Source: an uncultured Gammaproteobacteria bacterium
GTDB taxonomy: Bacteria > Patescibacteriota > Microgenomatia > Levybacterales > GWA1-39-11
Assembly: GCA_964568885.1 (NCBI GenBank)
Contig: CAZMSF010000002.1
Span: 4,367 to 68,366 of the forward strand
Direction of reading: 5' to 3'
DNA length: 64,000 nt
Part shown: positions 768 to 44,249 of the stretch, in pieces
How positions within the stretch are numbered: the stretch's first letter is position 1
How the letters are laid out: each line of letters begins with the position of its first letter
Notes under the pieces: model-generated
Told to the model about the DNA's origin: nothing
The model's database searches: none
Seen by the model: the letters and a program-made list of their open reading frames with translations, nothing else
Translations under genes and position numbers: made by a program

Positions 768-2144
768 TTATTGAAAACAGCTAAAGGGGTACTTTGTGGA
801 TTTTTTGAAAATTCCTCCCCACTCAACCATTGTAAATCCTTGTCTTGCCGTATTTGTGATTGTGGGAGCCGTAACGCTTATGGGAGCATCAAGCGGTTCG
901 AAATAAAGGGTAACGCGGATTGAAGTTTGTGGTTTTGGTGTAATTGTTAGGGGCGAGATAGCATCAAGATTTGCAGTAGGAACAACTCCCACAAAATAAT
1001 ACGGTGCATCCGGTAAAACCCCCGTCCAGTATTCAGCAAATTGGCCCTCTTCTTTGTTGTTCAATCCCAGTTTTGGAAGAATTTTGGAAAGCAACGTTTT
1101 AATTTCATCTTTTTTAACCACGAATCCTTTGGTCGGTTTTTCTATTTTTTCGTCAGGAATTTCTGCCTCGTAGTAGAGATAATCAAAGTTTGTACTCCCT
1201 GAAAGTATTGTTCCATCGGGATGGGCAATTACATTCCACCCCCCGTTAGGATATGGAGGAATAGTAAGTTTTACCGGGCCGACGGGATTTACTGTTACGT
1301 TAACCGGAGTTGTTGTTGTTGGATACAAATAGATGGCGGGTTTGCAAAATGGTGAAAGCCAAGGGACGAGGAGATTATCTTGTTGGATTTGAAATGTCTT
1401 GAGCTGCAGATTGTCTTTGGCGCCTGCCTGTAAAGTGGGGGTCACGATATGTTGCTGTCCGCCGGTCGTGCTACCGGTCGGTAGTGCAGAGGTGTCGCAA
1501 TTTTTTATAAAGTCCGGAACGCCGGGGGAGTTAACATCTGAAAGTTTGAAGTATGCATCATACTGAGAGTCTTGGTCTCCGTAGCACGTAACCTCAGGCC
1601 CCCACATACCGCTGCACGTTGCCGGATGACAATTTTTCTTGCAGACATAAATGATTTCGTCATTTGGAATTGAGACGCAGTAAGGAACCGATTGGGGGCT
1701 TCCGATTTGGATAGGGGGAGGGGGAACGCTTTTCAGATATTTGTCTTTAGGCTCCGTTCTGCAATAGGGGGTTGCGTACTGGGCCGGAATGATATGGGTA
1801 TCTGAAGAATTGAGTACAATTGGCTGGCCGTTGTATTGTTGCCCTGAATCTTTTAAGTGCACATTTCCTTCCATGAGAATTGTATTTGTACGAAGGAGCC
1901 CGTATTCAGCGCCATTGAAAGTGAGTTTTTGTCCGTCTCCAGTTTGGGGTTTGCAATCGTTTCCGCTACCAGTATCGCAACATGAAAGAACCGCTCCGTT
2001 ACCATTGGGTCCCGTAGGGGCGGATTTATTGACCAGGGTGTTACTGACCAAAAAAATAGCAAGAAAAAGTAGCGCAAGAAGCATGAGAGGAGTAATAATG
2101 CCTCCATGAGAATAGCGGATAAAACGTCTTCTTTTCTTCGCCAT
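768..2144 (-). CDS. signal-anchored secreted Cys-rich protein, paralog 1 of a family sharing a ~200-aa C-terminal domain (KPAIYLYP...GGW...PDGT...YLYYE...PKPxT...GFTxVEWGG)
   Basis: ORF 768..2222. The likely start is the internal MAKKRRRF at 2142-2144, followed by a hydrophobic helix. The C-terminal ~200 aa align with ORFs 2943..3929, 4017..5039 and 42012..44249. Confidence 0.7.
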   Translation of the reverse strand: MAKKRRRFIRYSHGGIITPLMLLALLFLAIFLVSNTLVNKSAPTGPNGNGAVLSCCDTGSGNDCKPQTGDGQKLTFNGAEYGLLRTNTILMEGNVHLKDSGQQYNGQPIVLNSSDTHIIPAQYATPYCRTEPKDKYLKSVPPPPIQIGSPQSVPYCVSIPNDEIIYVCKKNCHPATCSGMWGPEVTCYGDQDSQYDAYFKLSDVNSPGVPDFIKNCDTSALPTGSTTGGQQHIVTPTLQAGAKDNLQLKTFQIQQDNLLVPWLSPFCKPAIYLYPTTTTPVNVTVNPVGPVKLTIPPYPNGGWNVIAHPDGTILSGSTNFDYLYYEAEIPDEKIEKPTKGFVVKKDEIKTLLSKILPKLGLNNKEEGQFAEYWTGVLPDAPYYFVGVVPTANLDAISPLTITPKPQTSIRVTLYFEPLDAPISVTAPTITNTARQGFTMVEWGGIFKKSTKYPFSCFQ

Positions 2145-2220
2145 ACATTTATTAAAGCACTTCGAAAATTGAAATACAAAATTGGTTGACTTATTTTGCA
2201 ATTTTTGAAACGATAGAGCC

Positions 2221-2841
2221 ATGGAGGAGATTATTGACAGGCTTGGATGGAAAAAAGCTGCGATAATTCTTGTGGGATTATCAATTCTTGGAATTCTCTT
2301 TGCGCTCCTCTCCTTTTCAAATTCGGAAAAACAAATTCAAGATGTAGGGGTTAAGGCAGGACAAAAGCAGCAAGGTGAATCTAGTACTTCAACAACGAGC
2401 AGTAACAATAACCTGCCCAATAGTGGGGGAACGGCACCTGCGCAGAACCTAAAAACATACACGACCACGTATTTCCAGATTTCATATCCCGAAAAATATA
2501 ATGGCGTTCCCTATACTGCGTCAAAAGGGGTCCTTGCAAATCTTAAATTAGAAAATCCCGATTCGACAAAGAAAATCGAAATTGTTGTTTTTGATTCGTC
2601 AATGAGTTTTACCAAGCTCTCACAACCATTTGAGGTATTTAAATATGCAAAAAGTTCTATAGGACTCAACGCACTGACCGGCACAATGTACAAGGGGAGT
2701 GTTGCGGGAACAGGAATTCGTGAGGTAGTTGTATTGGTTCCCAAAAACAGCACGACAATCCGGATAATGGCAACGTATCAGGGGAAAGAGGACGTGAATT
2801 TCGAAAACGAATTTAACAGTATTGTAAACAGCTTGAATTAA
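2221..2841 (+). CDS. hypothetical signal-anchored secreted protein
   Basis: 206-aa ORF with an N-terminal hydrophobic helix (AAIILVGLSILGILFALL) followed by a Ser/Thr/Asn-rich linker. It is divergent from the 768..2144 gene. Confidence 0.55.
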   Translation: MEEIIDRLGWKKAAIILVGLSILGILFALLSFSNSEKQIQDVGVKAGQKQQGESSTSTTSSNNNLPNSGGTAPAQNLKTYTTTYFQISYPEKYNGVPYTASKGVLANLKLENPDSTKKIEIVVFDSSMSFTKLSQPFEVFKYAKSSIGLNALTGTMYKGSVAGTGIREVVVLVPKNSTTIRIMATYQGKEDVNFENEFNSIVNSLN

Positions 2842-2942
2842 ACGACCCCTGAAAAAACCAGCTCTTCTTATTTCCCGATGACTCCTCCGCCCCAAGGGCA
2901 CTTGCCATATTATGGTGGCGCCCAAAAAGATGAGGGTCGTCG

Positions 2943-3929
2943 TTATCTTCCGATAACTCCTCCCCATTCGACAGCAGTAAAACCGGTTCTTTTTGGAGCC
3001 TCCGGCAAGATAAGCGAAGTCACTGTTTCATTATCCGCAAGAGGAGCAAAGTAAGCGATAAATTCAATCATGGTATCGGGCTTTGGCGAAATACTAACTT
3101 TATCAACACGCTCCTTTTCATCACGGTCCAATACCGAAACAAATATTCTATCGGTTTTTATGCTTTGGAGGCGTGGTATCCACCAATCCAAAAATTCTTG
3201 TTGCTCGTCAGTTCTTGTCAGTCCAAGTTTTGCGATAAATGCTAAAAGTTCTGTTTTTAGGTTTTGTTTATTCATTGCTATCCCTGCTTTCGGCCGATTC
3301 AAAGCTTGAGACTGCGTCTCGTAAAAAAGTTCACGGTATTGCTTGTTTTGATATTCCAAAGTGCCATCGGGATTTGCCAAAACATTTTTCCAGCCGCCCG
3401 TTGGGTAGAGGGGGTCGCTTATGAAAATATTGCCGGCGGTTTCAACCGAAACGTTAACACTTGTTGGTTTTTCGGGATACAAATAGATAACAGGCTTGCC
3501 AATGCAGTACCATCCATCTCCATCCTGCCCAAAAATTTGACACCAATTTGATTGATCAACTTGCGTGCACGACATGCCGGACGGGATGCCGGATTTTGAA
3601 TAGTCAATATCTTTACAAGAACCGCCCTCGCATTTGATAAGCCAGGCCACACACTGGCATTTGTCAGGATCCGCTTTTTTTGACATGTCGTGATTGCATG
3701 AGTCGGTTGCAGGGGTGGGTTTTGGTTGGAATGAGACATTCTTCAGTTGAATATTTTGTTTGCCGCCTCCTCCTTCGGTTTGGGCTTGTCCATATTCCTC
3801 TTTCGAGTCTGTTGCACTTTTGTTGTAAAGGGTTCCGCTTGTGAGGAGCACCCCAAAAGCAACGACGATAAAAAGAATTGGAACGATAACATTACCCTTC
3901 ATGAATTTTGAATTATATTTATGATTCAT
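2943..3929 (-). CDS. signal-anchored secreted Cys-rich protein, paralog 2 of the shared C-terminal domain family
   Basis: 328-aa ORF with an N-terminal TM helix, then a Cys-rich segment, then the C-terminal domain KPVIYLYPEKP...GGWKNVLANPDGTL...YRELFYE...LGLTRTDEQQEFLDWW...SISPKPDT...GFTAVEWGG. It is roughly 75-80% identical to the 4017..5039 product over this domain. Confidence 0.7.
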   Translation of the reverse strand: MNHKYNSKFMKGNVIVPILFIVVAFGVLLTSGTLYNKSATDSKEEYGQAQTEGGGGKQNIQLKNVSFQPKPTPATDSCNHDMSKKADPDKCQCVAWLIKCEGGSCKDIDYSKSGIPSGMSCTQVDQSNWCQIFGQDGDGWYCIGKPVIYLYPEKPTSVNVSVETAGNIFISDPLYPTGGWKNVLANPDGTLEYQNKQYRELFYETQSQALNRPKAGIAMNKQNLKTELLAFIAKLGLTRTDEQQEFLDWWIPRLQSIKTDRIFVSVLDRDEKERVDKVSISPKPDTMIEFIAYFAPLADNETVTSLILPEAPKRTGFTAVEWGGVIGR

Positions 3930-4016
3930 TTGCCAATGACGCCTCCCTCCTCCAGAGGACTAGGTATTTCCCTCCGAGAGGATTAGCTATTTTATAGCGG
4001 CACATACCGTCGCATT

Positions 4017-5039
4017 CTAATTTGTTGGGTCGGTGTCTACGACACCTCCCCATTCAATAGCGGTAAAACCTACTCGTTTCGGCGCCTCAGGTAAAACAAG
4101 AGGTTTGACAGTTTCATTGTCCAAGAGTGGAGCAAAGTACACAATAAATTGAATAAATGTATCCGGTTTTGGAGAAATGGAAACATTATCGACCCGGGCT
4201 TTTTCATCTTTTTCAAGAACTGAGACAAATATTCTGTCGGTTTTTAATGTTTGAAGTTTTGGTGTCCACCAATCCAAAAATTCCTGTTGCTCGTCCTTTC
4301 GCGTTAAGCCGAGTTTTTCGATAAAATCAAGAAGCTCTGTTTTTAGGTTTTGTTTATCAATAATCACTCCTGTCTTCGGCCGATTTATCGTTTGAGTGTT
4401 AGATTCGTAAAATAACTCTCTGTACTGCTTGTTTTGATATACGAGTGTGCCGTTGGGATGTGCCAATACATTCTTCCAGCCGCCGGTTGGATAGTGCGGG
4501 TCGCTTACGAAAATATTTTCTTCGGGTGTGACTTTTACATCAACAAGTATCGGTTGTTCCGGATAGAGATAAATAACAGGTTTTCCGATACAAAAAGTTC
4601 CATTCATGCCACCCGGGCATATAGAGCACCACCCGTTTTGGTCTACTTGTGCACAGGTGTACGTTTTAAAAGCGGAACCTGATTTGTCCAGATCAACCTT
4701 TACGCATTTCCCGTTTTCACAAGTCAAATGAAGGTCAGGACACGTACATTCGTCTCCAACGGGCTGACAGCTATCTGCAAAACACCCTGCTGAGGGAACG
4801 GGAGTCGGAGTCGGAGGTACAGGTGTAGGGGTTGAGAAATTTACTTTTGTCATTTGCAACCCTTTGGTATTTGAGGACTGCTGGTCGGCAACGGTATAGC
4901 TGACATTTTCTTCACCGGTAGATGACTTTGGGCCTTGGAAGAAACCGGTCGAGCCCATAAGCACAATAACCGCAAGTCCGGCAATAAAAATTCCAAGTGC
5001 GGAAAATCCTCTTTGGGAATTTAGGGTGCAAAACTTCAT
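4017..5039 (-). CDS. signal-anchored secreted Cys-rich protein, paralog 3 of the shared C-terminal domain family
   Basis: 340-aa ORF with an N-terminal TM helix, a Pro/Thr linker (PTPVPPTPTPVP), a Cys-rich module and the same C-terminal domain as 2943..3929. It is a tandem duplicate. Confidence 0.7.
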   Translation of the reverse strand: MKFCTLNSQRGFSALGIFIAGLAVIVLMGSTGFFQGPKSSTGEENVSYTVADQQSSNTKGLQMTKVNFSTPTPVPPTPTPVPSAGCFADSCQPVGDECTCPDLHLTCENGKCVKVDLDKSGSAFKTYTCAQVDQNGWCSICPGGMNGTFCIGKPVIYLYPEQPILVDVKVTPEENIFVSDPHYPTGGWKNVLAHPNGTLVYQNKQYRELFYESNTQTINRPKTGVIIDKQNLKTELLDFIEKLGLTRKDEQQEFLDWWTPKLQTLKTDRIFVSVLEKDEKARVDNVSISPKPDTFIQFIVYFAPLLDNETVKPLVLPEAPKRVGFTAIEWGGVVDTDPTN

Positions 5040-5081
5040 ATTGTTATTGTATTGTGTTTTTCAAAAACAGTCAAAGAAGAA

Positions 5082-5801
5082 CTATTTTTGGATAGCAGAA
5101 GTTGGGGAGAGGTGTTTGAGTCCGGGAGGAAGAGTGATAACGACCTGATTTTTGGTAAGGTTTGTGTGTTCGCCTTGTTTTGCGTAAAGAAAGCCCGTTA
5201 ATTGAGTTAGCTCAAGGGTCGTTGAGAGAACGGCAACTTTTAAGGGCTTTACCGTAAAGTTGATTTCGGCAATTTTTCCCGAACCTGCCAGTTCCTGCAT
5301 GCCGTCAGGAAGCTTGAGGGTTATTGTTTTTTCTCCAGGGGTTGGGTCATTGATATCGGGATTTATGAGTTTTAATGAATAACCGAGCGCCGAAGTATTG
5401 TCCTGGTAAGGCGTAATGGTTACGTTGTCAAGTAAATTCGGATTGTATTTTACAGAAATAACGACTCCGGAAATTTTCCGGGCGTCGGTGTTTATGATGA
5501 CATCAATTGTTGTTTTCTTGCCAGGCGTGCCAATGATGTTAACGGGTGTCAAGAGTAAGCTTCCATACAGTTCTTGTTTTGGCCCTTCGTCTTTCGCTGT
5601 TTTTGATAATTTCAGTTTTTGAGAATACAAAACTCCAAAGAGTATGCTTGCAAGAACAAGAAAAAGCATCCCGAAAAGTGCGATGGCAACTTTCTTGTTC
5701 TTGCGAATAGTGGAGGTTAATGATTTGAGAGTCAAGGGCTCACGCGATGGAGTTTCTTTTGTTTCAACTGGTTGATTTTGCACTTCGTTTTCCATATCCA
5801 T
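5082..5801 (-). CDS. hypothetical signal-anchored protein
   Basis: 239-aa ORF with a TM helix at about residues 40-60 (VAIALFGMLFLVLASILFGVLY). It lies 10 bp downstream of the 5812..8406 gene on the same strand, so the two are probably an operon. Confidence 0.55.
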   Translation of the reverse strand: MDMENEVQNQPVETKETPSREPLTLKSLTSTIRKNKKVAIALFGMLFLVLASILFGVLYSQKLKLSKTAKDEGPKQELYGSLLLTPVNIIGTPGKKTTIDVIINTDARKISGVVISVKYNPNLLDNVTITPYQDNTSALGYSLKLINPDINDPTPGEKTITLKLPDGMQELAGSGKIAEINFTVKPLKVAVLSTTLELTQLTGFLYAKQGEHTNLTKNQVVITLPPGLKHLSPTSAIQK

Positions 5802-5811
5802 TTATCGTACC

Positions 5812-8406
5812 TTATGGCGTACAGACATAGCAATTTGTTTGTGTGCCCGAGCCCAAGTCACAACCATTTCCTTCGCCTTTCCATCCCCAATATCCTGTTC
5901 CGCCTGGGTAGAAGCATTGCATGTTGGCCTCTGATGCGCTTCCGCACATTGAGTTTGCAGGATGTCCTACACAGCTTGAAGGAGGAGTATACGATGATGT
6001 TGGAGCCGGGGCCGTCGTAGTAGATGGTACGGGAGCAGTTGTTCCGCCACCGGGAGCAGGAGTAGTGGTAGTTGTGCTACCTCCCGGCCTCTTTGTGCAG
6101 CAGACATTCGGCCGTCCGTTTGTCTCGCTGCAAACTCTGTCTCCATTTGTTCCTCCGGGGCCTATTGGCGCATGGTCGTAACCTGCAAGACATTGTGTCC
6201 CATCCTGACACTCATTGTTGGTGAGTCCACCTGCAGCGTTGTAATAAGGACAGTCCGCTTGATAACCGCTTCCTCCGCCGCTACTGCCGGTAGGCGAAGG
6301 TGAGACATATGGGGTTGCACTCATGCATGCTGCGGTATTTTGTACATCAGTTTGAGACTGAGCGCACCAGCGGCCCGTTGCACAAAATTGTCCATTAGGA
6401 TTATCGGGAGGAAATACCTTACCTGAAGCTTCTTTATAGCATCCAAGCGTTCCACCGCATCCGCCTCCTGTAGGACATGCACACCCTACACCCCAATTGC
6501 CGAAATTTGCCGCAGAACAATTGTTTGAGGCACCCGGAGTTGGAGTGAAGGCCACCCCTCCTTTATATTGGCAGGTGTAACTGTTGGGATACAAGGGGTT
6601 GGGATTTGTGCACTCAAGGTTTTTATTCGGTTCACAACAATAGATTTTATTAGAATAGTCATTGGGATGACAAGTCTGCCCTTGATAGGCGGTACAATTT
6701 GCATCGGGTCCTACAGTTGGCGAAGGAGTAGTAGTGCCTCCTGTTGCCGGACACCAAGGGGGAGAAGAGCAGGTATTTCCTCCGCTTGGGACATAATCGA
6801 CATATCGTTGACTTGTTGACGGGTCGATATTTTGGCAGATGTATTTGTCTTTGTAGACACCGCCGCAGAATTCGCGCGCTGCTGCCTTTGTCGCGTCAAA
6901 AAGCTTTTCGTTACATGTGCCATTAACATATGACAAAACTCCGCCTTTTACTCCGGCGCATGGACCCGATGCTGGGCCGGGTGTTCCTCCGCCAGGAGAT
7001 GTTGTTCCTCCGCCTGGAGCCGGGGTGGAGGAGCTACCTCCAATGCTCGAGCCATAATACTGAGCATATTTGTCCGGGTCATAGCAGCATATTCCCCCGT
7101 TGCATTTGTCATTGCCATAATTATCGTGGCCTGATGCTTTGTAATCAACGGTATGTTTGTCTCCGTTCACGCCACAAGATGATAAGCATGCAAACGTGCC
7201 ATTGATATTGCCAACAGCGGTGCAACTGTTAGGATCCGAAGAAGGTGGGGGAGTACTTGCGGGTGGAGGTGTGGCACCAGCGGCAGCGTCACACCTCAGG
7301 GAGGAAGTATTGCATTTTTGTGAAGCACAAACAACATTTACAGGCAAACCTTGAGAAGCATAGTCCTCACAAAGAGCATTAGTACCCCCTTGCGAAGTGG
7401 AGACACAAGAACTGCTCCCTTTTTGACCTTTTACATTGCTAATGCAGAATTGATTTGCAGGACAGTCAGAGTGAGTTTTGCAGCTTTCACCTGAGGCTAA
7501 CGGTGCCTCGCATTTCAGTGTATAGGCATTGCATTTTTGTGAAGCGCAAACAATATTTACCGGTAGTCCCTGGGAAGCATAGTCCTCACAAAGAGCATTT
7601 TCCCCACCCACCCTAGATCCAACACAAGAGCTACTTCCTTTTTGACCTTTTACATTGCTAATGCAGAATTGATTTGCAGGACAGTCAGAGTGAGTTCTGC
7701 AGCTTTCATTTGAAGTAGGAGGTGTAGCAGGCGGGTTTTCGCATACATCAAGCGACTTATTACAGTAGCTCGAAGCACAGTGTTCGTTTTCAAAACAGGG
7801 TTCTCCCAATCCCTGCTGGTACTTACCACAGTATCCTATCATTCCAGCATCAGGTCCAGCTGTTTTTGCTCCGGGGATACAATACTGACCTGGGCTTGAG
7901 TAACAAGCGCCGGTGTAGCAAGTTTGTCCAACATCTTGTTTCGTTTGACATCGTTGAGCATCTCCTTTGCCGCCTCGATAGACAAAGCACTCATCTAAAT
8001 GGTCTTTGCATTGATTTATAGATAGTGAGCCACAATCTACCGGTTTACGGACACAATATCCACACCTTCCATAGCCTATATCTTGGATAACACATTGATT
8101 ATCAAAGCAGTTGTGTAGATTGGCCTGACCATAAGAAAGATAATTTCCATTTCTGGTCGATGTGCAAGTATTTAAATCGGACCCACAATATTCGTATTCA
8201 ATATAGCCTCCCAACTGAGAATTGTAAGAACCGATTTGTGCTCCCAAAACACCTTTTTGTTTAATGCCGGAATAACTATTATTTGCAGCATAAGCTACTC
8301 CCTTTGTGGAGTTTAGAAATGAGAGGAGTCCGTAGATAATTCCTATAGCCAATAAAAGGATGAATAGAGGTAAATATAATGCTTTCAGTTTAACGAATAA
8401 GTTCAT
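5812..8406 (-). CDS. large secreted Cys/Gly-rich low-complexity protein with internal 73-aa tandem repeat
   Basis: 864-aa ORF with an N-terminal TM/signal (LPLFILLLAIGIIYGLLSF). It is extremely Cys-, Gly-, Thr- and Pro-rich. Two near-identical 73-aa units (SC[RK]THSDCPANQFCISNVKGQKGSSSC...CEDYASQGLPVN[IV]VCASQKCN) are encoded at 7267-7704. Confidence 0.7.
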   Translation of the reverse strand: MNLFVKLKALYLPLFILLLAIGIIYGLLSFLNSTKGVAYAANNSYSGIKQKGVLGAQIGSYNSQLGGYIEYEYCGSDLNTCTSTRNGNYLSYGQANLHNCFDNQCVIQDIGYGRCGYCVRKPVDCGSLSINQCKDHLDECFVYRGGKGDAQRCQTKQDVGQTCYTGACYSSPGQYCIPGAKTAGPDAGMIGYCGKYQQGLGEPCFENEHCASSYCNKSLDVCENPPATPPTSNESCRTHSDCPANQFCISNVKGQKGSSSCVGSRVGGENALCEDYASQGLPVNIVCASQKCNAYTLKCEAPLASGESCKTHSDCPANQFCISNVKGQKGSSSCVSTSQGGTNALCEDYASQGLPVNVVCASQKCNTSSLRCDAAAGATPPPASTPPPSSDPNSCTAVGNINGTFACLSSCGVNGDKHTVDYKASGHDNYGNDKCNGGICCYDPDKYAQYYGSSIGGSSSTPAPGGGTTSPGGGTPGPASGPCAGVKGGVLSYVNGTCNEKLFDATKAAAREFCGGVYKDKYICQNIDPSTSQRYVDYVPSGGNTCSSPPWCPATGGTTTPSPTVGPDANCTAYQGQTCHPNDYSNKIYCCEPNKNLECTNPNPLYPNSYTCQYKGGVAFTPTPGASNNCSAANFGNWGVGCACPTGGGCGGTLGCYKEASGKVFPPDNPNGQFCATGRWCAQSQTDVQNTAACMSATPYVSPSPTGSSGGGSGYQADCPYYNAAGGLTNNECQDGTQCLAGYDHAPIGPGGTNGDRVCSETNGRPNVCCTKRPGGSTTTTTPAPGGGTTAPVPSTTTAPAPTSSYTPPSSCVGHPANSMCGSASEANMQCFYPGGTGYWGWKGEGNGCDLGSGTQTNCYVCTP
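7267..7704 (-). repeat. two tandem copies of a 219-bp coding repeat inside the 864-aa Cys-rich protein gene
   Basis: The DNA at about 7486-7704 and 7267-7485 is near-identical, for example the recurring gcatttttgtgaagc[ag]caaaca and gacagtcagagtgagtt[ct]tgcagctttca. It encodes two 73-aa protein repeats. Confidence 0.7.
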
Positions 8407-8451
8407 AAACCGGCTAATATAATCTCAGAATACGATGTTTTAAACTCAAAG

Positions 8452-8973
8452 TCAACAGCCCGTCGCAGCACCGTTGTAGGTTTTGTTAATTATGGCACCC
8501 GATGAGACGGTTATCTTCCAAGCTGCGTTTCCGAACCCGTCGTCGTTACTTAAAGTCAACGGATACGTTTGGGATGGTGGAACAAAAGGCTGAGAACCGA
8601 TGGTTTTTGTTGCGCTGGATAGTTCTACCGTTGCTCCTGTCGTACCTTCGACCTTTACGCTCCCCGTCATGTAGGGTGCTTTTCCTTGTTTGCATCCATC
8701 AAAAGTGACGATTACGCTCCATTCTGATGGAGGGCCTGAGGGAGTGGTGGTGCCTGTCGTGCCGGGGGTTCCGGATGTGCCACCCGGTGTGGGAGTGTCT
8801 ATGACGGAAGATGGCTCATTGCCGGAAAAAAGACTGCCGCCGCCACCTGCAAGCATGATGGCAAAAACAACAACGATTATGAAAAGAATAATATAGGAAG
8901 ATGATTGACCACGTTGGGAGACTAATGATTTATGGTTAATAGTTAATAGTTGATGGAAAAATTTAATAGGCAT
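8452..8973 (-). CDS. small signal-anchored Thr/Gly/Pro-rich secreted protein
   Basis: 173-aa ORF with the hydrophobic segment YIILFIIVVVFAIMLAGGGG followed by a TPTPGGTSGTPGTTGTTTPSGPP linker. Confidence 0.5.
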   Translation of the reverse strand: MPIKFFHQLLTINHKSLVSQRGQSSSYIILFIIVVVFAIMLAGGGGSLFSGNEPSSVIDTPTPGGTSGTPGTTGTTTPSGPPSEWSVIVTFDGCKQGKAPYMTGSVKVEGTTGATVELSSATKTIGSQPFVPPSQTYPLTLSNDDGFGNAAWKITVSSGAIINKTYNGAATGC

Positions 8974-8983
8974 ACATAATTAA

Positions 8984-9046
8984 GTATTAAGTATCACGGT
9001 TCGTATTGCAATTTGCAAAGTGAACTGAGCGATGTATTAAGTATCA
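8984..9046. promoter_or_regulatory. candidate operator: 13-bp direct repeat GTATTAAGTATCA (8984-8996 and 9034-9046) flanking a palindromic TTGCAATTTGCAA (about 9006-9019)
   Basis: Direct reading of the intergenic region upstream (minus sense) of the 8452..8973 gene. Confidence 0.3.
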
Positions 9047-9054
9047 AGTGGGTA

Positions 9055-9348
9055 TCAGTTCTGTGATGCTTCGAGGGTGGTGATTCTTTTTTCGTGGGCG
9101 GAAATTACTTTATCATTTCGTTCAAAGTGAAGTGTTGAAGCTACATTTTCTTCACGAATATCTACTAATTCTTTCAAAATCCTATCTTGGGTTGTTTGTA
9201 TTGTATCCAGCTTGTCATAAATTTGGTTTGATACGTCTTGAACTACTTGCTTCAGGTCGTCCTTTGTCGCAAAATTTGCTAGTTTTTGATCGAGGTAGGA
9301 TTTTGTTACAGGTTTGTCTTTTTTTTCTGCGGTTGTCACTTTTTTCAT
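9055..9348 (-). CDS. hypothetical small charged, possibly coiled-coil protein
   Basis: 97-aa ORF rich in K, E, D and Q with no TM segment. It is co-oriented with the surface-protein island. Confidence 0.4.
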   Translation of the reverse strand: MKKVTTAEKKDKPVTKSYLDQKLANFATKDDLKQVVQDVSNQIYDKLDTIQTTQDRILKELVDIREENVASTLHFERNDKVISAHEKRITTLEASQN

Positions 9349-9413
9349 AGAGATATCTAGAATATCACTTTGTGGTTAATCTTCAATAAGACAAACTACA
9401 ACAGTTCGTGAGG

Positions 9414-10343
9414 CTATTGCCCTGCATCATTGCAGATTTTTTGAGAGATATCTTTATATATTTGCTTGAGCTGAGTGGGGTCGGGAATTTCATAATATGT
9501 TGAAAGAGTAGGCTCTGTTGCGATTTTCCCCATCATAGTTCTCATGTCTGGTAAAAAGTATTCGTCTTGAGGGTCCCCAGGGACATAGAGTGCAATCGTA
9601 TATATTTTTATCCCCTTGTCTTTTATTTCTTTTGAAACGTCAGGGCTTTGGGTTGGGTCCTGGGAATTGGCAAAACATCTCAAGTTGGTAGGTGTTTGGT
9701 ATTGTCTGCCGCTTGCACAATCACGCGGGTTTGTTTCGGGAATGCCATCAGACAGGAAAATGAGCGCAAATTTCTGATTGGGAAATGTGGTTTGCGCTGC
9801 AAGGATTTTATCCCTCTCAAACAGGAACGCGGAACGCGTATTGGTTGCACCGGCCGCACGAAGGTTTTGAATCGCTTCCGGCATAGAACTTTTGGCATCT
9901 TTATATCGTGAGAATGGGACGTCTTCCTGAACAACAACAGCACCGTCGTCATTACTGCTGAAAGATGAGAGACCAATGACCGATTGGTCTGAAAGACTTT
10001 GGGTAAAGGTGGTAAGGGCGGATTTTAAGTTGTCAATTTTTGCACCCCTCATGGAACCCGAGCGGTCAACCAAAAGTCCAACTGCAACTTTGCTTGCACA
10101 TTCACGGAATTTGATGGTCTTGAGTTGCAAGTTGTTGCGGTTGATGCCGGGGGTTTCTTTTACTATTTCCAAGTCTCCAGTTTCTCCCGGGTCGGAAAGA
10201 GTCGAGCGCGGAGTAACACCGCGAGAAAGTAAGACCCCCATGCCAACTGCAAGGCCAATAAAAGCAAGGGTAAAAATTGTCCCCGGTCCCGTGAGATTAA
10301 TGCCAAATCCGCCTCCGCCTCGTCTTCTGTTATTGTTAGCCAT
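9414..10343 (-). CDS. von Willebrand factor A domain protein with conserved N-terminal Arg/Gly-rich signal-anchor module
   Basis: The N-terminus is MANNNRRRGGGGFGINLTGPGTIFTLAFIGLAVGMGVLLSRGVTPRSTLS. The vWA MIDAS motif is LLVDRSGSM (DxSxS), with a downstream T/D. Confidence 0.75.
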   Translation of the reverse strand: MANNNRRRGGGGFGINLTGPGTIFTLAFIGLAVGMGVLLSRGVTPRSTLSDPGETGDLEIVKETPGINRNNLQLKTIKFRECASKVAVGLLVDRSGSMRGAKIDNLKSALTTFTQSLSDQSVIGLSSFSSNDDGAVVVQEDVPFSRYKDAKSSMPEAIQNLRAAGATNTRSAFLFERDKILAAQTTFPNQKFALIFLSDGIPETNPRDCASGRQYQTPTNLRCFANSQDPTQSPDVSKEIKDKGIKIYTIALYVPGDPQDEYFLPDMRTMMGKIATEPTLSTYYEIPDPTQLKQIYKDISQKICNDAGQ

Positions 10344-10345
10344 AA

Positions 10346-11239
10346 TTATAATTGTATAGTAGTGCAGCCTTCACTGATATCTCCAACTTGATCTCCGTCG
10401 TGAAGGATGAACTGTGCGCGGTATGCATGTCCTGTCTCAAGGCCCAAACTGTCTACCTTCCAAATGATTTCCGCGCCAAAAAATGGTTCTTGGCGCCTTG
10501 CCGAATTTGCAAATTTCACATTGGAATTAGGGGGGTAAGGGTCTGCGCCGGGTCCCAAATCCAAATCATTTGGGTTTGGCATTACGGCTGCTGCGCCCAA
10601 AGGTTTCCATGCCCCATACACCTCGTCGGGTTTGTGCGGGGTGCCGCCGTTTTGAGCATCTCCCGATTTATTATTTGGGTCCGAGGTAATATCGCTTAAG
10701 AAAAGGGCAGGGTACCAAGGGAAATTATTCGCATCTTTTTGAGTTTCATCGCCAACATTGGGATTTACCACGTGGTCTTTTGAGCTCGTTGAAGGAGAGA
10801 CGTTCCCAGCGCCAAGAGTTATTGGCCACTCATCTTGGTAAAAAACTTTAATAGCTCCGCCTTTTACAACCGGTGTTCCGGGGTCGGGGTTGATTGCCCA
10901 AAGGATATATGGCTCGGGACTTCCCTTTATTGCATCATCTCCGCAATCAAACGTCGGGGGAATAACTACTTTCATTTTGAGGGTTCGAAGCTGCAAATTA
11001 GATTTTTGAGGCTCAGTTTGGTTGGTGTCTATCTGGTATGTGTTTTTGTCGTTGAGTCCTGAGAGTGTCGAGCGGGGAGTTACACCCCGGGACATGAGTA
11101 TTCCCATGCCAAGAGCAATTCCGATGAAAGCAATGGTAAAAACAGTCCCGGGACCTGTAAGGTTGATGCCAAAGCCCATTCCTCCCGCGCTTCGTTTTTT
11201 TTCCTTTGCCATACCTATAAGTTTAGAATTACATTTCAA
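10346..11239 (-). CDS. hypothetical secreted protein sharing the N-terminal signal-anchor module of the adjacent vWA protein
   Basis: The N-terminus MAKEKKRSAGGMGFGINLTGPGTVFTIAFIGIALGMGILMSRGVTPRSTLS is nearly identical to that of 9414..10343 over about 45 aa. The remainder is unrelated. There is a 2-bp gap to the vWA gene. Confidence 0.65.
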   Translation of the reverse strand: MKCNSKLIGMAKEKKRSAGGMGFGINLTGPGTVFTIAFIGIALGMGILMSRGVTPRSTLSGLNDKNTYQIDTNQTEPQKSNLQLRTLKMKVVIPPTFDCGDDAIKGSPEPYILWAINPDPGTPVVKGGAIKVFYQDEWPITLGAGNVSPSTSSKDHVVNPNVGDETQKDANNFPWYPALFLSDITSDPNNKSGDAQNGGTPHKPDEVYGAWKPLGAAAVMPNPNDLDLGPGADPYPPNSNVKFANSARRQEPFFGAEIIWKVDSLGLETGHAYRAQFILHDGDQVGDISEGCTTIQL

Positions 11240-40902: not shown

Positions 40903-42015
40903 CTATTCGAATTTGAAGAGGAAGAATTCGCAGGATTGCTGAGTGATTTGAGCGGGCCCGACAGTCGGTGTCGGGGTGGGGGTGTCTGTTGGGGTCGGAG
41001 GGACAAAGGTTTTCAGGTTAAGCTGAGGATTTCTTACCGGCTTGGGAGTCGCCGTAGGAGTCGAGTTTTGTTGTTCGGTGTCATTTCCCCCACCAAAAAG
41101 ATTTGCAAAGAAGGAGGCTACATTATCAAAAAATGATTTGTTGCTTGTTGATGCTCCGAGGATTACAGTGTTGCCGACGACCGGAACAAATGCGGTTTTT
41201 TTATCGCATGTCGGTACCGCCTGGACACGATAAACCTGTCCCTTTTCCATTGAGGAGGGAACATCAAGGTCCCACGTTGCTTTATACCGGGTTTTTTGGG
41301 CGGTAGTTTCGGCAACAATTGCAGCTATATTTTCTTTTTTGTCGATTGTCACAATTTTATCAGCTTCTTTGTAGAGAGTGAATGTGAAGGCGGAGATTTT
41401 GGCGTATTTCCCGTCATCACCTTCAACTTTACCAAAGGCAGTAATTGCAGTTTTTCCTCCGCGGATAATTGCACCTGCCTCAAGTCCATCGCATTTACAC
41501 ATATTTTGTGCAAAAGGTGTCGAGCATTTATTGTTGGTGCAGGCCGTGCACCCCGCGTCTTTTGCAGCACCCGTGCAGTCACCATCTTTTGTGCACGCTA
41601 CCCCACACGCAGGGGGAGTTTTGCAAACGCCACTAATACAAGCTGTACAGGAATCTTTTGCGCCAGTGCAGTCACCATCTTTTGTGCACGCTACCCCACA
41701 CGCAGGGGGAGTTTTGCATGCGCCGCTTATGCATGCGGTGCAGCCGTCTTTTGCTCCCTCGCAGTCTCCGTCTCTAGTGCATGCGACATTGCATGCAGGA
41801 GCCTTCTTGCACGTATATCCGTTGGTGCCTGAAACGCAGTCAGAGCAATCTTGTGGGCACGCGACTCCACCGGGGGTACATGTCTGGCCGCAGGCAGGAG
41901 GGGGTTGGGTCGGAAGACAGACATTATCAACTGCCCGTGCTTTTTGAGTAGTCAAGAATATAAATATTAGTGCAAAAAATCCTACCAATAATGTTTTAAA
42001 AGCTACAATTTTCAT
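40903..42015 (-). CDS. secreted protein with three 31-aa Cys-rich repeats (PACGVACTKDGDCTGAKDSCTACISGVCKTP)
   Basis: An N-terminal signal, with the repeats encoded at about 41521-41802. Its start overlaps the stop of the 42012..44249 gene (ATGA). Confidence 0.6.
   Translation of the reverse strand: MKIVAFKTLLVGFFALIFIFLTTQKARAVDNVCLPTQPPPACGQTCTPGGVACPQDCSDCVSGTNGYTCKKAPACNVACTRDGDCEGAKDGCTACISGACKTPPACGVACTKDGDCTGAKDSCTACISGVCKTPPACGVACTKDGDCTGAAKDAGCTACTNNKCSTPFAQNMCKCDGLEAGAIIRGGKTAITAFGKVEGDDGKYAKISAFTFTLYKEADKIVTIDKKENIAAIVAETTAQKTRYKATWDLDVPSSMEKGQVYRVQAVPTCDKKTAFVPVVGNTVILGASTSNKSFFDNVASFFANLFGGGNDTEQQNSTPTATPKPVRNPQLNLKTFVPPTPTDTPTPTPTVGPAQITQQSCEFFLFKFE
41521..41802 (-). repeat. three tandem ~93-bp coding repeats (Cys-rich 31-aa units)
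   Basis: Protein residues 72-165 of the 370-aa product. Confidence 0.6.
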
Positions 42016-44249
42016 AGTAATTCAAATGCTCCTAATTCTACTACGGTAAAACCATTTCTTTGAAGAGGGAGAATTTCAGGTCGAGAAACTGAATAGGGAG
42101 AATCAACTCGATGAATAACCAGGTGCACTCTATGCATCGTATCCGGTTTTGGTACAAGAGAGAGTGGGAGATTTCTCTCAACTTCTGCCTGATTTGCGAT
42201 TCCGATGAAATAATAACGGGCTTTAGTCTTTATGGTATTGACGACATCTTGAGAAAGTCGGTTTGTCTCATTCTCATTTAAGCCAAGTTCCGACGCGATT
42301 TTATTTACTTGGGTCGGGATTTCACTTCTCCCTACGATAAATCCTTTCGAGGGTAGCGAAAATTGAACCGTCCGTGGGTCATACTCATAATAAAGGTACT
42401 GTCTTTCCGTACCGTTTGCCCGGATTGTTCCATCATGAAGTACTAGAGTCCGGATAGTGTTGTTTTTGATTTCCGGGTCCGAGTAGGTCAGCTTTGCGCC
42501 GGTTGAGACAATTATTGACTCTGTTTGAATTGGATAGAGAAAGATTGCAGGAGAAAGACCAGTAATATAACAATGTGGGTCTCCCGATTGATATCCGGGT
42601 TGAACTCCATTCGTGTTCTGAAATACTTTTGGAAAGCGGGTTTTACACACTTGCATTTCTGCCGGTATGTTAAGGTCAGGGCAAAGACCTTTGGCTATGG
42701 CGTTTATCATGTCAGTCTTATTTGTCGAGCCTGTTGTGCTTATGAGGTAATAAGTATTTGGTGCTGTTGATACTTGTCCAAGCACAATTTTTCCGTATCC
42801 TGGAATGTCAAAAGTAACGACCTTTGCATAATCTGATTCTTTCGAGCACTCAGTCGGCGTAGGCGTAGGAGTACAGGCTCCGCCACTAGGAGATGGGTTT
42901 GGGGAAGTCGAGGGAGAAGGGGATGTTGTGGTGGAGGGTGACGGACTCGGTGAAGATGTTGTTCCTGGAACGTTGTTGCCGTGGTCCTGCGCATAGGCCT
43001 TTTTTACGAATGGATTTGTGAGAAACCCAATTTGTGGCTTTGAGGCCTTAACAGCTTGGATGAATTTAACGGTATATCCTGAATTGAGTGATGCAACACC
43101 TTTAATTATGTAATACGGTTCGTATGAATCCTGCGTGTCTTCAAGCGGTTTTTCAATGTAGCCCATTACCATATCGGTAATGGTAGCATCAGTACTTTCT
43201 GCTAAATTGTTAGGATACACTTTCTTTAGGTCAACCGTTCCGGTGCCTGCGGGCATCATAATGGTAAAGTCGGCTTGATTATTTCTCACTTTAGAAAGCG
43301 CTTCTTGGGGTCCGATTATTTTTTCAGTTGTAATTTTTTTATCTCTATCGAGCTGCCGCATTGTTGAGCTGATAGTGACAATGCTTCCGTCTTTTTGAAC
43401 TCCAATAACGACGCTATTGAAATCAACCGGTCGGGAAAGTCCGTCTTGGTTGTTGTTGGTGTTGATGACACTTTCATCCCGTGGTCCGTTGGGGTCTGCA
43501 TATCCCGGGCTTAAAGTCGACATGAATTTTGTTTCGGGAAGGTTAAGAATGCCGGGAGGGTTAAGAAGCGGTGCGCCTAAGAGATTCCAATTTCTATGAC
43601 ACTCAACATACGTGACGTCTTTGGCATCCGACTTTTGGAAAGTTACCGGACACGTCACCGTTGCATCAAGCATCCCCAAAGTTCTGAGTATTGTTTCGGC
43701 AACGGATTGAGGATTTTGTGAGCCGGCGATTTTTAATCCGGTGGCATTATAGAAATCGAAAGTTCCCACTTTAGGGTTTACCAAAAGAAAAGAACTTTTT
43801 TCACCACCGTCTAATGTATATAAGTCATAATCATCCGAGCTTTTTTTAAGTTTTGCATTCGCAAGATTGAGTTTTTCCTTTAAGCTTCGTACCTCTTCGG
43901 AAGATACATTATTTTTTAAAGGGTATACTTTGACCGCAGAATTGGTAAGCGGTGAATTTTTTACTTTGCCAAGTGCGCTTCTGTCCTCGTATTTTGTTGA
44001 AGTAAATTTTGGAATTTGAGTGGAAGGAATTGTCTCTTGGGATGTTCTTGAGTTTGGCGATGTGTTTGGCTGTTTTGAAAATATAAGTATTAAAACCAAA
44101 ATTAAACCGACCGCTGCAATAAGTCCCACCAAAAGAAGTGTTTTCACAGGAAGCATTCGTGGTCCCTTTTTAAGGGATTCTTGGGTATCCGGCAAAGAGG
44201 GGGAGGCGGGCTGTTCCATAACATTTACTTCGGAATTTTTATTTTCCAT
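42012..44249 (-). CDS. large signal-anchored surface protein (745 aa) carrying the same C-terminal domain as the 768-5039 paralogs
   Basis: An N-terminal TM (LLLVGLIAAVGLILVLILIF), a Ser/Pro/Thr linker (SPSPSPSTTTSPSPSTSPNPSPSG), and the C-terminal PAIFLYP…YLYYEY…LGLNENE…PKPDTM…NGFTVVELG, which matches the family domain. Confidence 0.7.
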   Translation of the reverse strand: MENKNSEVNVMEQPASPSLPDTQESLKKGPRMLPVKTLLLVGLIAAVGLILVLILIFSKQPNTSPNSRTSQETIPSTQIPKFTSTKYEDRSALGKVKNSPLTNSAVKVYPLKNNVSSEEVRSLKEKLNLANAKLKKSSDDYDLYTLDGGEKSSFLLVNPKVGTFDFYNATGLKIAGSQNPQSVAETILRTLGMLDATVTCPVTFQKSDAKDVTYVECHRNWNLLGAPLLNPPGILNLPETKFMSTLSPGYADPNGPRDESVINTNNNQDGLSRPVDFNSVVIGVQKDGSIVTISSTMRQLDRDKKITTEKIIGPQEALSKVRNNQADFTIMMPAGTGTVDLKKVYPNNLAESTDATITDMVMGYIEKPLEDTQDSYEPYYIIKGVASLNSGYTVKFIQAVKASKPQIGFLTNPFVKKAYAQDHGNNVPGTTSSPSPSPSTTTSPSPSTSPNPSPSGGACTPTPTPTECSKESDYAKVVTFDIPGYGKIVLGQVSTAPNTYYLISTTGSTNKTDMINAIAKGLCPDLNIPAEMQVCKTRFPKVFQNTNGVQPGYQSGDPHCYITGLSPAIFLYPIQTESIIVSTGAKLTYSDPEIKNNTIRTLVLHDGTIRANGTERQYLYYEYDPRTVQFSLPSKGFIVGRSEIPTQVNKIASELGLNENETNRLSQDVVNTIKTKARYYFIGIANQAEVERNLPLSLVPKPDTMHRVHLVIHRVDSPYSVSRPEILPLQRNGFTVVELGAFELL

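What the first reader, a model, noticed from the sequence alone, without database searches (positions are those of the whole stretch)
768..11239. 10-kb island of consecutive secreted/surface genes (nine of ten on the minus strand) built around a recurring, unnamed ~200-aa C-terminal domain (fourth copy at 42012-44249)
Ten adjacent genes, nine of them on the minus strand, each start with a signal anchor followed by low-complexity or Cys-rich modules. Three tandem paralogs (768-2144, 2943-3929, 4017-5039) and the distant 745-aa protein (42012-44249) end in the same domain: KP[AV]IYLYP…GGW…PDGT…Y[RL]…[LY]FYE…LGL…PKP[DQ]T…FxPL…R.GFT.VE[WL]GG. I cannot map this domain to a known family. Its constant C-terminal position after Cys-rich spacers suggests a cell-surface anchoring or host-contact module. 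The island also carries an 864-aa Cys/Gly-rich giant and a vWA adhesin-type protein. Together these fit an adhesion or attachment apparatus of a surface-attached or episymbiotic cell.
Basis: seen in the sequence. Interest (0 to 1): 0.7.

Follow-up and report, generated by a model that had tools for sequence, protein, structure and literature searches.

The report
Unnamed widespread secreted C-terminal protein domain
Four membrane-tethered surface proteins of this candidate-phylum (Levyibacteriota-like) bacterium end in the same ~180-residue domain, which belongs to a very large family that has no name and no solved structural relative and is found in many bacteria and some archaea, so it is a real uncharacterised domain but not a special attachment device of episymbionts.

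Summary
Ten genes lie between glyA and rpsB, nine of them on the minus strand. Nine of the ten have one N-terminal hydrophobic anchor. Exactly four proteins in the window end in one ~180-aa domain (pairwise E 8e-29 to 9e-122).

- The family is huge: 8,106 clusters at 50% identity.
- It is not CPR-specific. It occurs in many CPR phyla, DPANN archaea, Firmicutes (a human-gut cluster of 9,775 sequences) and Bacteroidota.
- Linkage to vWA, cohesin and Cys-rich genes is seen only in close relatives.
- Elsewhere the domain stands alone behind a lipobox, or follows GH8-dockerin-SH3b, BspA-LRR-CBM37-SH3b, TIG, Kunitz or ankyrin modules.
- In 26 of 81 loci it sits next to a secreted Memo+CapA fusion.

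About 25 residues are nearly invariant.

My best reading (confidence 0.4) is a membrane-distal ligand-recognition head for a common extracellular or envelope polymer. A new enzyme is the main rival (0.3). I tested CBM37 directly and rejected it.

The parts
768..2144 (-). Gene A (458 aa). Order: N-terminal anchor, conserved Cys-containing N-domain (CCDxGDG..., IPNDExIYVC), NLQLKTF linker, then the C-terminal domain with an extra C-terminal FSC. This is the commonest architecture in the family.
   Evidence: (homologs align from M27, so the start is 2144)
804..1343 (-). Copy 1 of the unnamed ~180-aa domain (A aa 268-447)
   Evidence: HMM 236 bits
2221..2841 (+). Gene K (206 aa). It has an anchor, a Ser/Thr-rich linker and a small globular part (sub-threshold PsbP_2). 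It is the divergently oriented neighbour of the B-type genes.
   Evidence: A homolog is adjacent in 16 related loci.
2943..3929 (-). Gene B (328 aa). Order: anchor, NIQLK motif, Pro/Thr linker, 8-Cys module, domain.
   Evidence: An identical protein, P0001, is in the public collection.
2949..3500 (-). Copy 2 of the domain (B aa 144-327). This copy was modelled: pLDDT 97, pTM 0.91.
4017..5039 (-). Gene C (340 aa), the tandem paralog of B (67% identity)
4035..4586 (-). Copy 3 of the domain (C aa 152-335)
5082..5801 (-). Gene E (239 aa): anchor plus a cohesin-like domain
   Evidence: PF00963, 26.4 bits against cut-off 24.1
5812..8406 (-). Gene F (864 aa). A secreted Cys/Gly-rich giant (8.3% Cys, 13.7% Gly) with an internal 219-nt (73-aa) duplication at 7286-7713. 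It is the most variable island gene: 66% identity and 864 vs 711 aa against its ortholog.
8452..8973 (-). Gene G (173 aa): anchor, Gly/Thr/Pro linker and a small domain
9055..9348 (-). Gene H (97 aa). Hydrophilic, with no signal or anchor. It is probably not part of the surface set. This slot is variable: the ortholog is only 49% identical, and a HTH-PIN pair is inserted next to it in L001.
9414..10343 (-). Gene I (309 aa). Order: 81-aa leader (anchor plus NLQLKT), then a vWA domain with MIDAS DRSGS.
10346..11212 (-). Gene J (288 aa from ATG 11212). It has the same 81-aa leader as I (56% identity), ending at NLQLRT, followed by an unassigned ~200-aa domain.
42012..44249 (-). Gene D (745 aa). 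Order: anchor, ~520-aa unassigned region, then a divergent copy of the domain. Its stop overlaps the start of the next gene.
42024..42554 (-). Copy 4 of the domain (D aa 566-742). It belongs to a stable divergent subfamily that keeps E60/E97/R166/E173 but lacks K2, W37, W105 and W174.
40903..42015 (-). A secreted Cys-rich repeat protein of 370 aa (7.8% Cys), translationally coupled to D by a 4-nt overlap
10119..10133 (-). An example of the recurring N-L-Q-L-[KR] motif, which lies ~25-45 aa after the anchor. Other copies are at 1398-1412 (A), 3741-3755 (B), 4848-4862 (C) and 10985-10999 (J).

Best explanation
A, B, C and D are single-pass, N-terminally anchored extracytoplasmic proteins. Their constant C-terminal ~180 residues form an autonomous, compact alpha/beta globule: an eight-stranded beta half, two long helices and a helix-backed sheet. 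This globule belongs to a very large, still unnamed domain family.

The anchor is N-terminal and is followed by Pro/Thr linkers and variable Cys-rich or other spacers. The conserved domain is therefore the membrane-distal head.

I infer that it is a non-catalytic recognition module for a widespread extracellular or cell-envelope polymer, most plausibly a glycan. In other words, it works like the accessory binding modules (CBMs, SH3b-type wall-binding modules) that sit at the ends of modular surface proteins and enzymes. The near-invariant aromatic and acidic residues (Y6, Y8, W37, E60, E97, F101, W105, R166, E173, W174) would form the binding site.

In this Levyibacteriota-like lineage the family has expanded into several paralogs with different stalks. 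The divergent D subfamily has swapped the tryptophans and presumably has a changed specificity.

Shown: homology, copy number, topology signals, architecture, conservation pattern, taxonomic spread, gene context, and the absence of any named or solved relative.
Inferred: binding rather than catalysis, the nature of the ligand, and that the conserved residues form a single site.
For: - Real, repeated domain.
- Confident autonomous fold: pLDDT 97.
- Position: C-terminal in 80/80 loci, with an N-terminal anchor or lipobox in most.
- Modular use as an appended unit behind unrelated modules, a typical accessory-module pattern:
  - GH8-dockerin-SH3b and DUF285/BspA-LRR-CBM37-SH3b
  - CarboxypepD_reg
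  - TIG and Kunitz
  - ankyrin
- Two or three copies alternating with spacer modules in single polypeptides (P0121, P0122). This suggests avidity.
- Near-invariant Trp, Tyr and Phe plus Glu and Arg across phyla.
- The D subfamily keeps Glu/Arg but replaces the Trp residues consistently, as expected for a change of ligand.
- Envelope-related context in CPR: a secreted Memo+PGA_cap fusion adjacent on the same strand in 26 of 81 loci, with MurB, DUF4012 and pilus genes nearby.
Against: - No ligand or binding has been shown.
- The degree of conservation (~25 positions >= 93% identical from bacteria to archaea, including K, 3 E and R) is higher than is usual for CBMs and fits an enzyme equally well.
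- Short stand-alone forms, with only an anchor or lipobox plus the domain, are common. That is normal for enzymes.
- Presence in DPANN archaea rules out a ligand restricted to bacteria, such as peptidoglycan, as the universal target.
- The AFDB-scale fold libraries were not available, so a structural relative of known function may exist outside the PDB.
Confidence: 0.4

Rival explanations
1. The domain is a new extracytoplasmic enzyme, for example a hydrolase, lyase or transferase acting on an envelope or extracellular polymer. The invariant carboxylates (E60, E97, E173) with R166/K2 would form the active site. The N-terminal stalks and modules would only position or target it.
For: - Extreme conservation of charged residues across bacteria and archaea.
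- E60, E97, R166 and E173 are retained even in the divergent D subfamily, which lost the tryptophans.
- Stand-alone anchor-plus-domain proteins are frequent.
- Tight same-strand adjacency to an enzyme-like secreted Memo+PGA_cap fusion in 26 of 81 loci.
- The size (180 aa, alpha/beta) is compatible with a small enzyme.
- Multifunctional GH proteins with a second catalytic module exist in ruminococci (PMC4081043).
Against: - No similarity to any catalytic fold.
- Multiple copies alternate with Ig-like or ankyrin spacers in one chain, which is unusual for enzymes.
- A C-terminal position after SH3b, CBM37 or dockerin is typical of accessory modules.
- The conserved Glu/Arg residues may be structural salt bridges.
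Confidence: 0.3
2. The domain is a host-contact or adhesion module, and the ten-gene island is an attachment apparatus specific to a surface-attached or episymbiotic CPR cell.
For: - Nine of the ten island genes encode anchored or secreted proteins, including vWA (MIDAS intact), cohesin-like and Cys-rich proteins.
- Island proteins diverge faster than the flanking genes between two related genomes: 66-90% against 95-98%.
- The family is abundant in CPR and present in DPANN, both largely episymbiotic.
- The domain is fused to a BspA-type LRR surface protein in R. albus.
Against: - The domain is common in non-symbiotic Firmicutes and Bacteroidota.
- Linkage to vWA, cohesin and the giant is confined to a few close relatives.
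- The domain is the conserved part and the stalks are the variable part, the reverse of a host-specificity determinant.
- There are no pilus or sortase signatures.
- H is cytoplasmic-looking.
- There is no evidence that the genes act together beyond co-orientation.
Confidence: 0.12
3. The domain is a cell-surface retention (anchoring) module. It binds the producer's own wall, S-layer or capsule and so holds the protein at the surface.
For: - In Ruminococcus proteins with cleavable signal peptides and no membrane anchor, the domain travels as a cassette with SH3b, a classical wall-binding module.
- Constant C-terminal position.
- Envelope-biogenesis neighbours in CPR.
Against: - The window's four proteins, and most family members, already carry an N-terminal anchor or lipobox.
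- The family spans organisms with very different envelopes: CPR, DPANN archaea, diderm Bacteroidota and Firmicutes. A common self-envelope ligand is therefore hard to name.
Confidence: 0.12

Closest known systems
CBM37 of Ruminococcus albus (a C-terminal module that binds polysaccharides and the cell surface)
   Same: Both are accessory, non-catalytic-looking modules at the C-terminal end of secreted enzymes and non-enzymatic surface proteins. Both sometimes occur in several copies. CBM37 is proposed to link proteins to polymers or to the cell surface (PMC4081043).
   Different: Tested here, and they are not related. The family HMM finds nothing in the R. albus 7 GH11-CBM22-GH10-CBM37 xylanase, even with filters off. 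That xylanase's ~97-aa CBM37 instead matches a different segment (aa 337-433) of the R. albus LRR protein, which also carries our domain at aa ~525-705. CBM37 is ~100 aa and is reported only in R. albus. Our domain is ~180 aa and is spread over many phyla.
Bacterial SH3b / SH3_3 wall-binding modules
   Same: They are small extracytoplasmic modules appended to surface proteins and enzymes. In Ruminococcus, SH3b lies directly upstream of our domain as a mobile two-module cassette.
   Different: The fold and size differ: SH3b is ~60 aa and all-beta. There is no sequence or structural match.
Cohesin-dockerin surface assemblies
vWA-containing tip adhesins of Gram-positive pili (RrgA/PitA type)
   Same: The island has a vWA protein with an intact MIDAS motif next to other surface proteins.
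   Different: There is no sortase motif, no pilin domains and no LPxTG. The vWA protein is N-terminally anchored. vWA is linked with the domain only in 4 closely related loci.
[not shown]
   Same: They are membrane-tethered, extracytoplasmic, small beta-rich proteins.

Membership tests
Any curated protein family (Pfam-A 2025, NCBIfam r20, PHROGs v4) | A significant profile-HMM match over the ~180-aa domain | tested here: not met
   There were no hits at E <= 0.1 for A-D and none over the domain in 7+10+3 diverse family members. PHROGs gave none. RefSeq calls the Diplocloster member 'hypothetical protein'.
[not shown]
   [not shown]
CBM37 | Sequence similarity to the R. albus CBM37 module | tested here: not met
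   hmmsearch --max with the family HMM finds nothing in WP_013483737.1 (GH11-CBM22-GH10-CBM37). BLASTP of its C-terminal 160 aa against A-D gives E >= 1.2.
CBM37 | About 100 residues and restricted to R. albus | tested here: not met
   The domain is 180-185 aa. At least 560 loci were found across many phyla. CBM37 is described as unique to R. albus in PMC4081043.
CBM37 / carbohydrate-binding modules in general | Demonstrated binding to polysaccharide or to the cell surface | not testable with these tools
   This needs purified protein and binding assays.
Cohesin (gene E, 5082-5801) | A Pfam PF00963 match above the gathering score | tested here: met
   26.4 bits against a cut-off of 24.1, E 9e-6, covering aa 92-204. 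The ortholog in L001 is marked 'Cohesin (weak)'.
Cohesin-dockerin system | A dockerin-bearing partner encoded with the cohesin | tested here: not met
   There is no Dockerin_1 hit in any island protein.
von Willebrand factor A (gene I, 9414-10343) | A VWA profile match and the MIDAS DxSxS motif | tested here: met
   PF00092 at 61 bits; DRSGS at aa 93.
Sortase-dependent adhesin/pilus island | C-terminal LPxTG-type sorting signals on the surface proteins | tested here: not met
   No island protein, nor D, has an LPxTG-like motif near its C-terminus. A sortase gene was not searched for systematically.
CPR-specific (episymbiont-specific) protein family | Restricted to CPR/DPANN genomes | tested here: not met
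   Confirmed members occur in Clostridia, Lachnospiraceae, Ruminococcus, Erysipelotrichaceae, Flavobacteriales and Chitinophagaceae, including the cultured Diplocloster hominis and R. albus 7.

The most novel reading that the evidence does not exclude
The domain founds a large protein superfamily: at least 8,100 clusters at 50% identity, shared by CPR, DPANN archaea, Firmicutes and Bacteroidota. Its fold has no solved relative. It would carry out a so-far undescribed extracytoplasmic activity, either a new class of polymer-recognition module or a new Glu/Glu/Arg-based enzyme. In most CPR it would act together with the secreted Memo+CapA fusion encoded next to it in the making or remodelling of an unknown envelope polymer. 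In addition, the N-L-Q-L-[KR]-T-[FL] element that ends the shared leaders of five island proteins could be a new lineage-specific N-terminal processing or sorting signal.
Probability: 0.3. Interest if true: 0.7.

Novelty: new variant of a known kind. Interest (0 to 1): 0.5.

Why it matters
A family of this size and breadth with no name and no structural relative is a real gap in protein annotation. It has more than 8,000 clusters at 50% identity, is found in both bacteria and archaea, and includes one human-gut cluster of nearly 10,000 sequences.

It has cultured, tractable carriers (Diplocloster hominis, Ruminococcus albus 7) in which function could be tested. The result would then transfer to CPR and DPANN organisms, where envelope biology is almost unknown.

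The recurrent pairing with a secreted Memo+CapA fusion gives a concrete two-gene module to study.

For the window itself, the result tempers the 'episymbiont attachment apparatus' idea. The island is a lineage-specific, fast-evolving cluster of surface proteins. Its recurring domain is a general-purpose module, not a symbiosis-specific one.

Tried and rejected
- **Curated family libraries.** Pfam-A, NCBIfam and PHROGs scans of the window proteins and of about 20 diverse family members found nothing over the domain.
- **PDB by sequence.** Profile searches with three alignments gave nothing significant.
- **CBM37 identity.** I considered this after finding the R. albus fusion, tested it directly and rejected it.
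- **Literature.** A search for the motif strings IYLYP and VEWGG returned only unrelated text. A search for Memo/CapA/Patescibacteria was swamped by word-start matches. The Cell 2023 Patescibacteria genetics paper does not mention Memo or CapA.
- **Memo+PGA_cap partner.** There is none in the 64-kb window by tblastn.
- **Shared I/J leader.** A database search found only 3 near-identical fragments, so the leader is not a widespread cassette at the sequence level.
- **Partners outside CPR.** Looking in Firmicutes and Bacteroidota loci found no conserved partner.
- **D as a decaying pseudocopy.** Rejected: it belongs to a conserved subfamily.
- **RNA genes.** The window has no tRNA and no Rfam hits.
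- **Terminators.** Intrinsic terminators inside the cluster are not above the shuffled expectation.

Full report
**1. The observation**

The left boundary is glyA, whose 5' part lies at about 1-660 on the minus strand. The right boundary is rpsB-tsf, from 11361 on the plus strand. Ten ORFs lie between them, nine on the minus strand:

| Gene | Coordinates | Strand |
|---|---|---|
| A | 768-2144 | - |
| K | 2221-2841 | + |
| B | 2943-3929 | - |
| C | 4017-5039 | - |
| E | 5082-5801 | - |
| F | 5812-8406 | - |
| G | 8452-8973 | - |
| H | 9055-9348 | - |
| I | 9414-10343 | - |
| J | 10346-11212 | - |

- B through J are co-directional with gaps of 2-87 nt.
- A sigma-70-like site sits at 11249-11220. 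Together with the 288-aa ortholog, it puts J's start at ATG 11212.
- A hydropathy scan finds one N-terminal hydrophobic segment in nine of the ten genes. H has none.
- F is 8.3% Cys and 13.7% Gly, and contains a 219-nt tandem duplication.
- I is a solid vWA protein (61 bits, MIDAS DRSGS). E passes the cohesin gathering score only narrowly.

**2. The shared domain**

A, B, C and the distant D (42012-44249) align over their last ~180 residues. BLASTP gives E 8e-29 for A vs D, 2e-33 for A vs B and 9e-122 for B vs C. I built an HMM from the family and scanned all six frames of the window. It finds exactly these four copies, at nt 804-1343, 2949-3500, 4035-4586 and 42024-42554.

**3. It has no name and no solved relative**

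- Pfam-A, NCBIfam and PHROGs give nothing over the domain. This holds for the window proteins and for about twenty diverse members from other phyla.
- RefSeq annotates the member from the cultured Diplocloster hominis as 'hypothetical protein'.
- PDB sequence searches with three profiles are empty.
- AlphaFold2 with a 74-sequence alignment gives a very confident model: pLDDT 97.0, pTM 0.91. It has eight strands, two long helices and then a beta-alpha-beta-beta-beta unit.
- AFDB-scale libraries were not available.

**4. Size and spread of the family**

- A word-indexed search returned 1,499 hits, all unnamed.
- An exhaustive HMMER search of 1.84 billion cluster representatives returned 8,106 proteins at E <= 1e-3 and 4,889 at E <= 1e-30.
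- The closest of these is a Candidatus Levyibacteriota MAG, at 78% identity over the B domain.
- Other CPR phyla with members: Saccharibacteria, Doudna-, Kerfeld-, Uhr-, Falkow-, Magasanik-, Roizman-, Dojka-, Peri- and Paceibacteria.
- Non-CPR members: Clostridia, Lachnospiraceae, Ruminococcus, Oscillospiraceae, Erysipelotrichaceae, Flavobacteriales, Chitinophagaceae, Crocinitomicaceae and others.
- A Nanoarchaeota member lies in an unmistakably archaeal context, next to diphthamide synthase.
- The Diplocloster-type protein stands for a 90%-identity cluster of 9,775 sequences from gut metagenomes.

The family is not CPR-specific.

**5. Architecture**

In 80 of 80 genome loci the domain ends 0-16 residues before the stop. 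Most of these proteins start with a hydrophobic anchor or a lipobox. Several classes recur:

- Anchor or lipobox plus the domain only (about 200-250 aa).
- The A type, which is the commonest among the best hits. It has a conserved N-domain with CCDxGDG and IPNDExIYVC motifs. An invariant Cys just before KP and another in a C-terminal FSC tail presumably form a disulfide that closes the domain.
- The B/C type, with a short 8-Cys module.
- A ~600-aa CPR type.

Fusions to recognisable modules are all of extracellular or interaction kinds:

- CarboxypepD_reg, alternating three times with the domain in P0122.
- Ankyrin, alternating three times in P0121.
- TIG and Kunitz.
- GH8-dockerin-SH3b-domain, on an IMG/VR contig.
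- DUF285/BspA-LRR-CBM37-SH3b-domain, in R. albus 7 plasmid protein WP_013483720.1.

'Always C-terminal' is thus nearly true. The multi-copy proteins are the exceptions.

**6. Conservation**

Across 354 domain instances, about 25 positions are at least 93% identical: K2 P3, Y6 L7 Y8 P9, P30 Y32, G36 W37, G45, L57 E60, G72, G92 L93, E97 F101 W105, P135 P137, R166 G168 F169, E173 W174 G175 G176.

The window's D copy belongs to a small but stable subfamily of ten clusters, going down to about 30-45% identity. It keeps E60, E97, R166 and E173. It consistently replaces K2, W105, W174 and G176, and in its closer members W37 as well. D is therefore not a decaying copy. It is a diverged paralog, probably with altered specificity.

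**7. Gene context**

I clustered all ORFs of 81 loci. The only widely recurring neighbour is a secreted Memo (PF01875) + PGA_cap/CapA (PF09587) fusion. It is adjacent on the same strand in 26 loci, mostly non-Microgenomates CPR. The pairing is seen again around the short P0109 form, with MurB, DUF4012 and pilus genes nearby. No such gene is in the window.

A K-like gene is the divergent neighbour in 16 Levyibacteriota-like loci. Homologs of the island's other genes accompany the domain only in a few close relatives: vWA in 4 loci, cohesin in 4, the giant in 2, and G, H and J in 1 each.

The whole island is syntenic in a related 107-kb contig. Against that genome, the identities are:

| Gene(s) | Identity |
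|---|---|
| rpsB, tsf, glyA (flanking) | 95-98% |
| J | 95% |
| A | 90% |
| I, B, C | 85% |
| G | 82% |
| K, E | 78-79% |
| F | 66% (864 vs 711 aa) |
| H | 49% |

. This is a fast-evolving surface-protein cluster. Its link to the domain is by descent, not a general functional coupling. Firmicutes and Bacteroidota loci show no conserved partner.

**8. Most likely mechanism**

Shown:
- These are N-terminally tethered extracytoplasmic proteins.
- The conserved, autonomously folding head lies at the far end of variable stalks.
- Evolution treats the head as a portable module appended to enzymes and interaction modules, sometimes in several copies.
- It has an unusually conserved set of aromatic and acidic residues.

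Inferred: it is a recognition module for a common extracellular or envelope polymer, working like a CBM or wall-binding accessory module (confidence 0.4).

The main rival is a new enzyme (0.3). It is favoured by the invariant Glu/Glu/Arg/Glu set, which survives even in the D subfamily. The frequent stand-alone forms and the enzyme-like Memo+CapA partner also favour it.

Peptidoglycan cannot be the universal ligand, because DPANN archaea carry the domain.

**9. Comparison with known families**

The nearest functional analogue is CBM37 of R. albus. I tested membership directly. The ~97-aa CBM37 of the GH11-CBM22-GH10-CBM37 xylanase (WP_013483737.1) matches aa 337-433 of the R. albus LRR protein at 64% identity. 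It has no similarity to our domain, and the family HMM does not hit the xylanase even with all filters off. The two modules coexist in one protein and are unrelated. SH3b, cohesin/dockerin, vWA tip adhesins and SpaI/NisI/PliG are resemblances of context or of insignificant structural score only.

**10. A side observation: the N-L-Q-L-[KR]-T-[FL] motif**

- Five island proteins (A, B, C, I, J) carry this motif 25-45 residues after the anchor. In A it lies just before the domain.
- I and J share an 81-aa leader at 56% identity. The similarity stops exactly at this motif.
- In Levyibacteriota-like loci, 23% of anchor-bearing ORFs have the motif, against 2% of other ORFs and 2% in other taxa. That sample is biased towards the family.
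- In the A model the motif lies in a low-confidence linker.

It may be a lineage-specific processing or sorting site. A database search with the leader found only three fragments.

**11. Verdict**

The finding is real, and its central claim holds: an unnamed, recurring C-terminal domain. The functional story needs correcting. The domain is a general, widely distributed extracytoplasmic module of unknown ligand or activity, not an episymbiosis-specific anchor or adhesin. The 'apparatus' is a lineage-specific cluster of rapidly evolving surface proteins. Interest is moderate (0.5). Large unannotated metagenomic families are not rare. This one is unusually broad and confidently folded, has no solved relative, and is now testable in cultured carriers.

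Noticed in passing
window 1398-1412, 3741-3755, 4848-4862, 10119-10133, 10985-10999 (minus strand): A recurring N-L-Q-L-[KR]-T-[FL] motif lies ~25-45 aa after the N-terminal anchor in A, B, C, I (vWA) and J, followed by Pro/Thr linkers. It is enriched in anchor-bearing ORFs of Levyibacteriota-like loci (23% against 2%) and sits in a low-confidence linker of the A model. It is a candidate lineage-specific processing or sorting signal.
   Followed up: partly
window 10101-10343 and 10970-11212 (minus strand): The vWA protein (I) and its neighbour J share an 81-aa N-terminal leader at 56% identity. The similarity ends exactly at the NLQL[KR]T motif, and the passenger domains are unrelated. A database search found only 3 close fragments.
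   Followed up: yes
L022-L084 (26 loci, e.g. L030 6479-8125, L036 3256-4755) and L085-L089 4117-5907: A secreted Memo (PF01875) + PGA_cap/CapA (PF09587) fusion protein is encoded immediately next to the domain protein, on the same strand, in about a third of the loci, mainly CPR. This two-gene module appears to be undescribed. It is absent from the window.
   Followed up: partly
window 36689-39223 (+), with a long antisense ORF at 36797-39295: A PEP synthase / pyruvate,water dikinase-like gene (PPDK_N, PEP-utilizers, PEP-utilizers_C) has GC 0.56 in a ~0.43 GC background. This suggests possible horizontal acquisition. The 832-aa antisense ORF is probably a by-product of the high GC.
   Followed up: partly
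L102 4429-6546 (R. albus 7 pRUMAL02, WP_013483720.1) and L101 6303-8558 (IMG/VR contig): In ruminococci the domain travels as an SH3b+domain cassette. It is found at the end of a BspA-LRR-CBM37 surface protein and of a GH8-dockerin enzyme. RefSeq names the former only after its LRR part.
   Followed up: yes
window 42012-44249 compared with P0300: D is 100% identical to a protein whose longest carrying contig has the same length (107,582 bp) as the contig that L001 comes from. The island orthologs on L001 are only 49-95% identical, and rpsB is 97.7%. If it is the same contig, this is uneven divergence along one genome pair (recombination or population mosaic).
   Followed up: no
window 7286-7713 (minus-strand gene F): There is a 219-nt (73-aa) tandem duplication inside the Cys/Gly-rich giant (81-93% nt identity). 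F differs by 153 aa in length from its ortholog.
   Followed up: partly
L097, L098 (IMG/VR), L092-L094 and MT835506.1 4419-4952: The human-gut (Diplocloster-type) member lies among YodL, DUF4262, HTH and SSB genes. It also appears on contigs classified as viral and in an unannotated 'Bacteriophage sp.' record. It may ride on a prophage or mobile element.
   Followed up: no
window 9055-9348 and L001 4190-5348: The slot between the vWA gene and gene G is variable. The window has a 97-aa hydrophilic coiled-coil-like protein that is only 49% identical to its L001 counterpart. L001 additionally carries a HTH_17 + PIN toxin-antitoxin-like pair there.
   Followed up: no
window 1-64000: No tRNA gene and no Rfam family at gathering score were found in the whole 64 kb.
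   Followed up: yes
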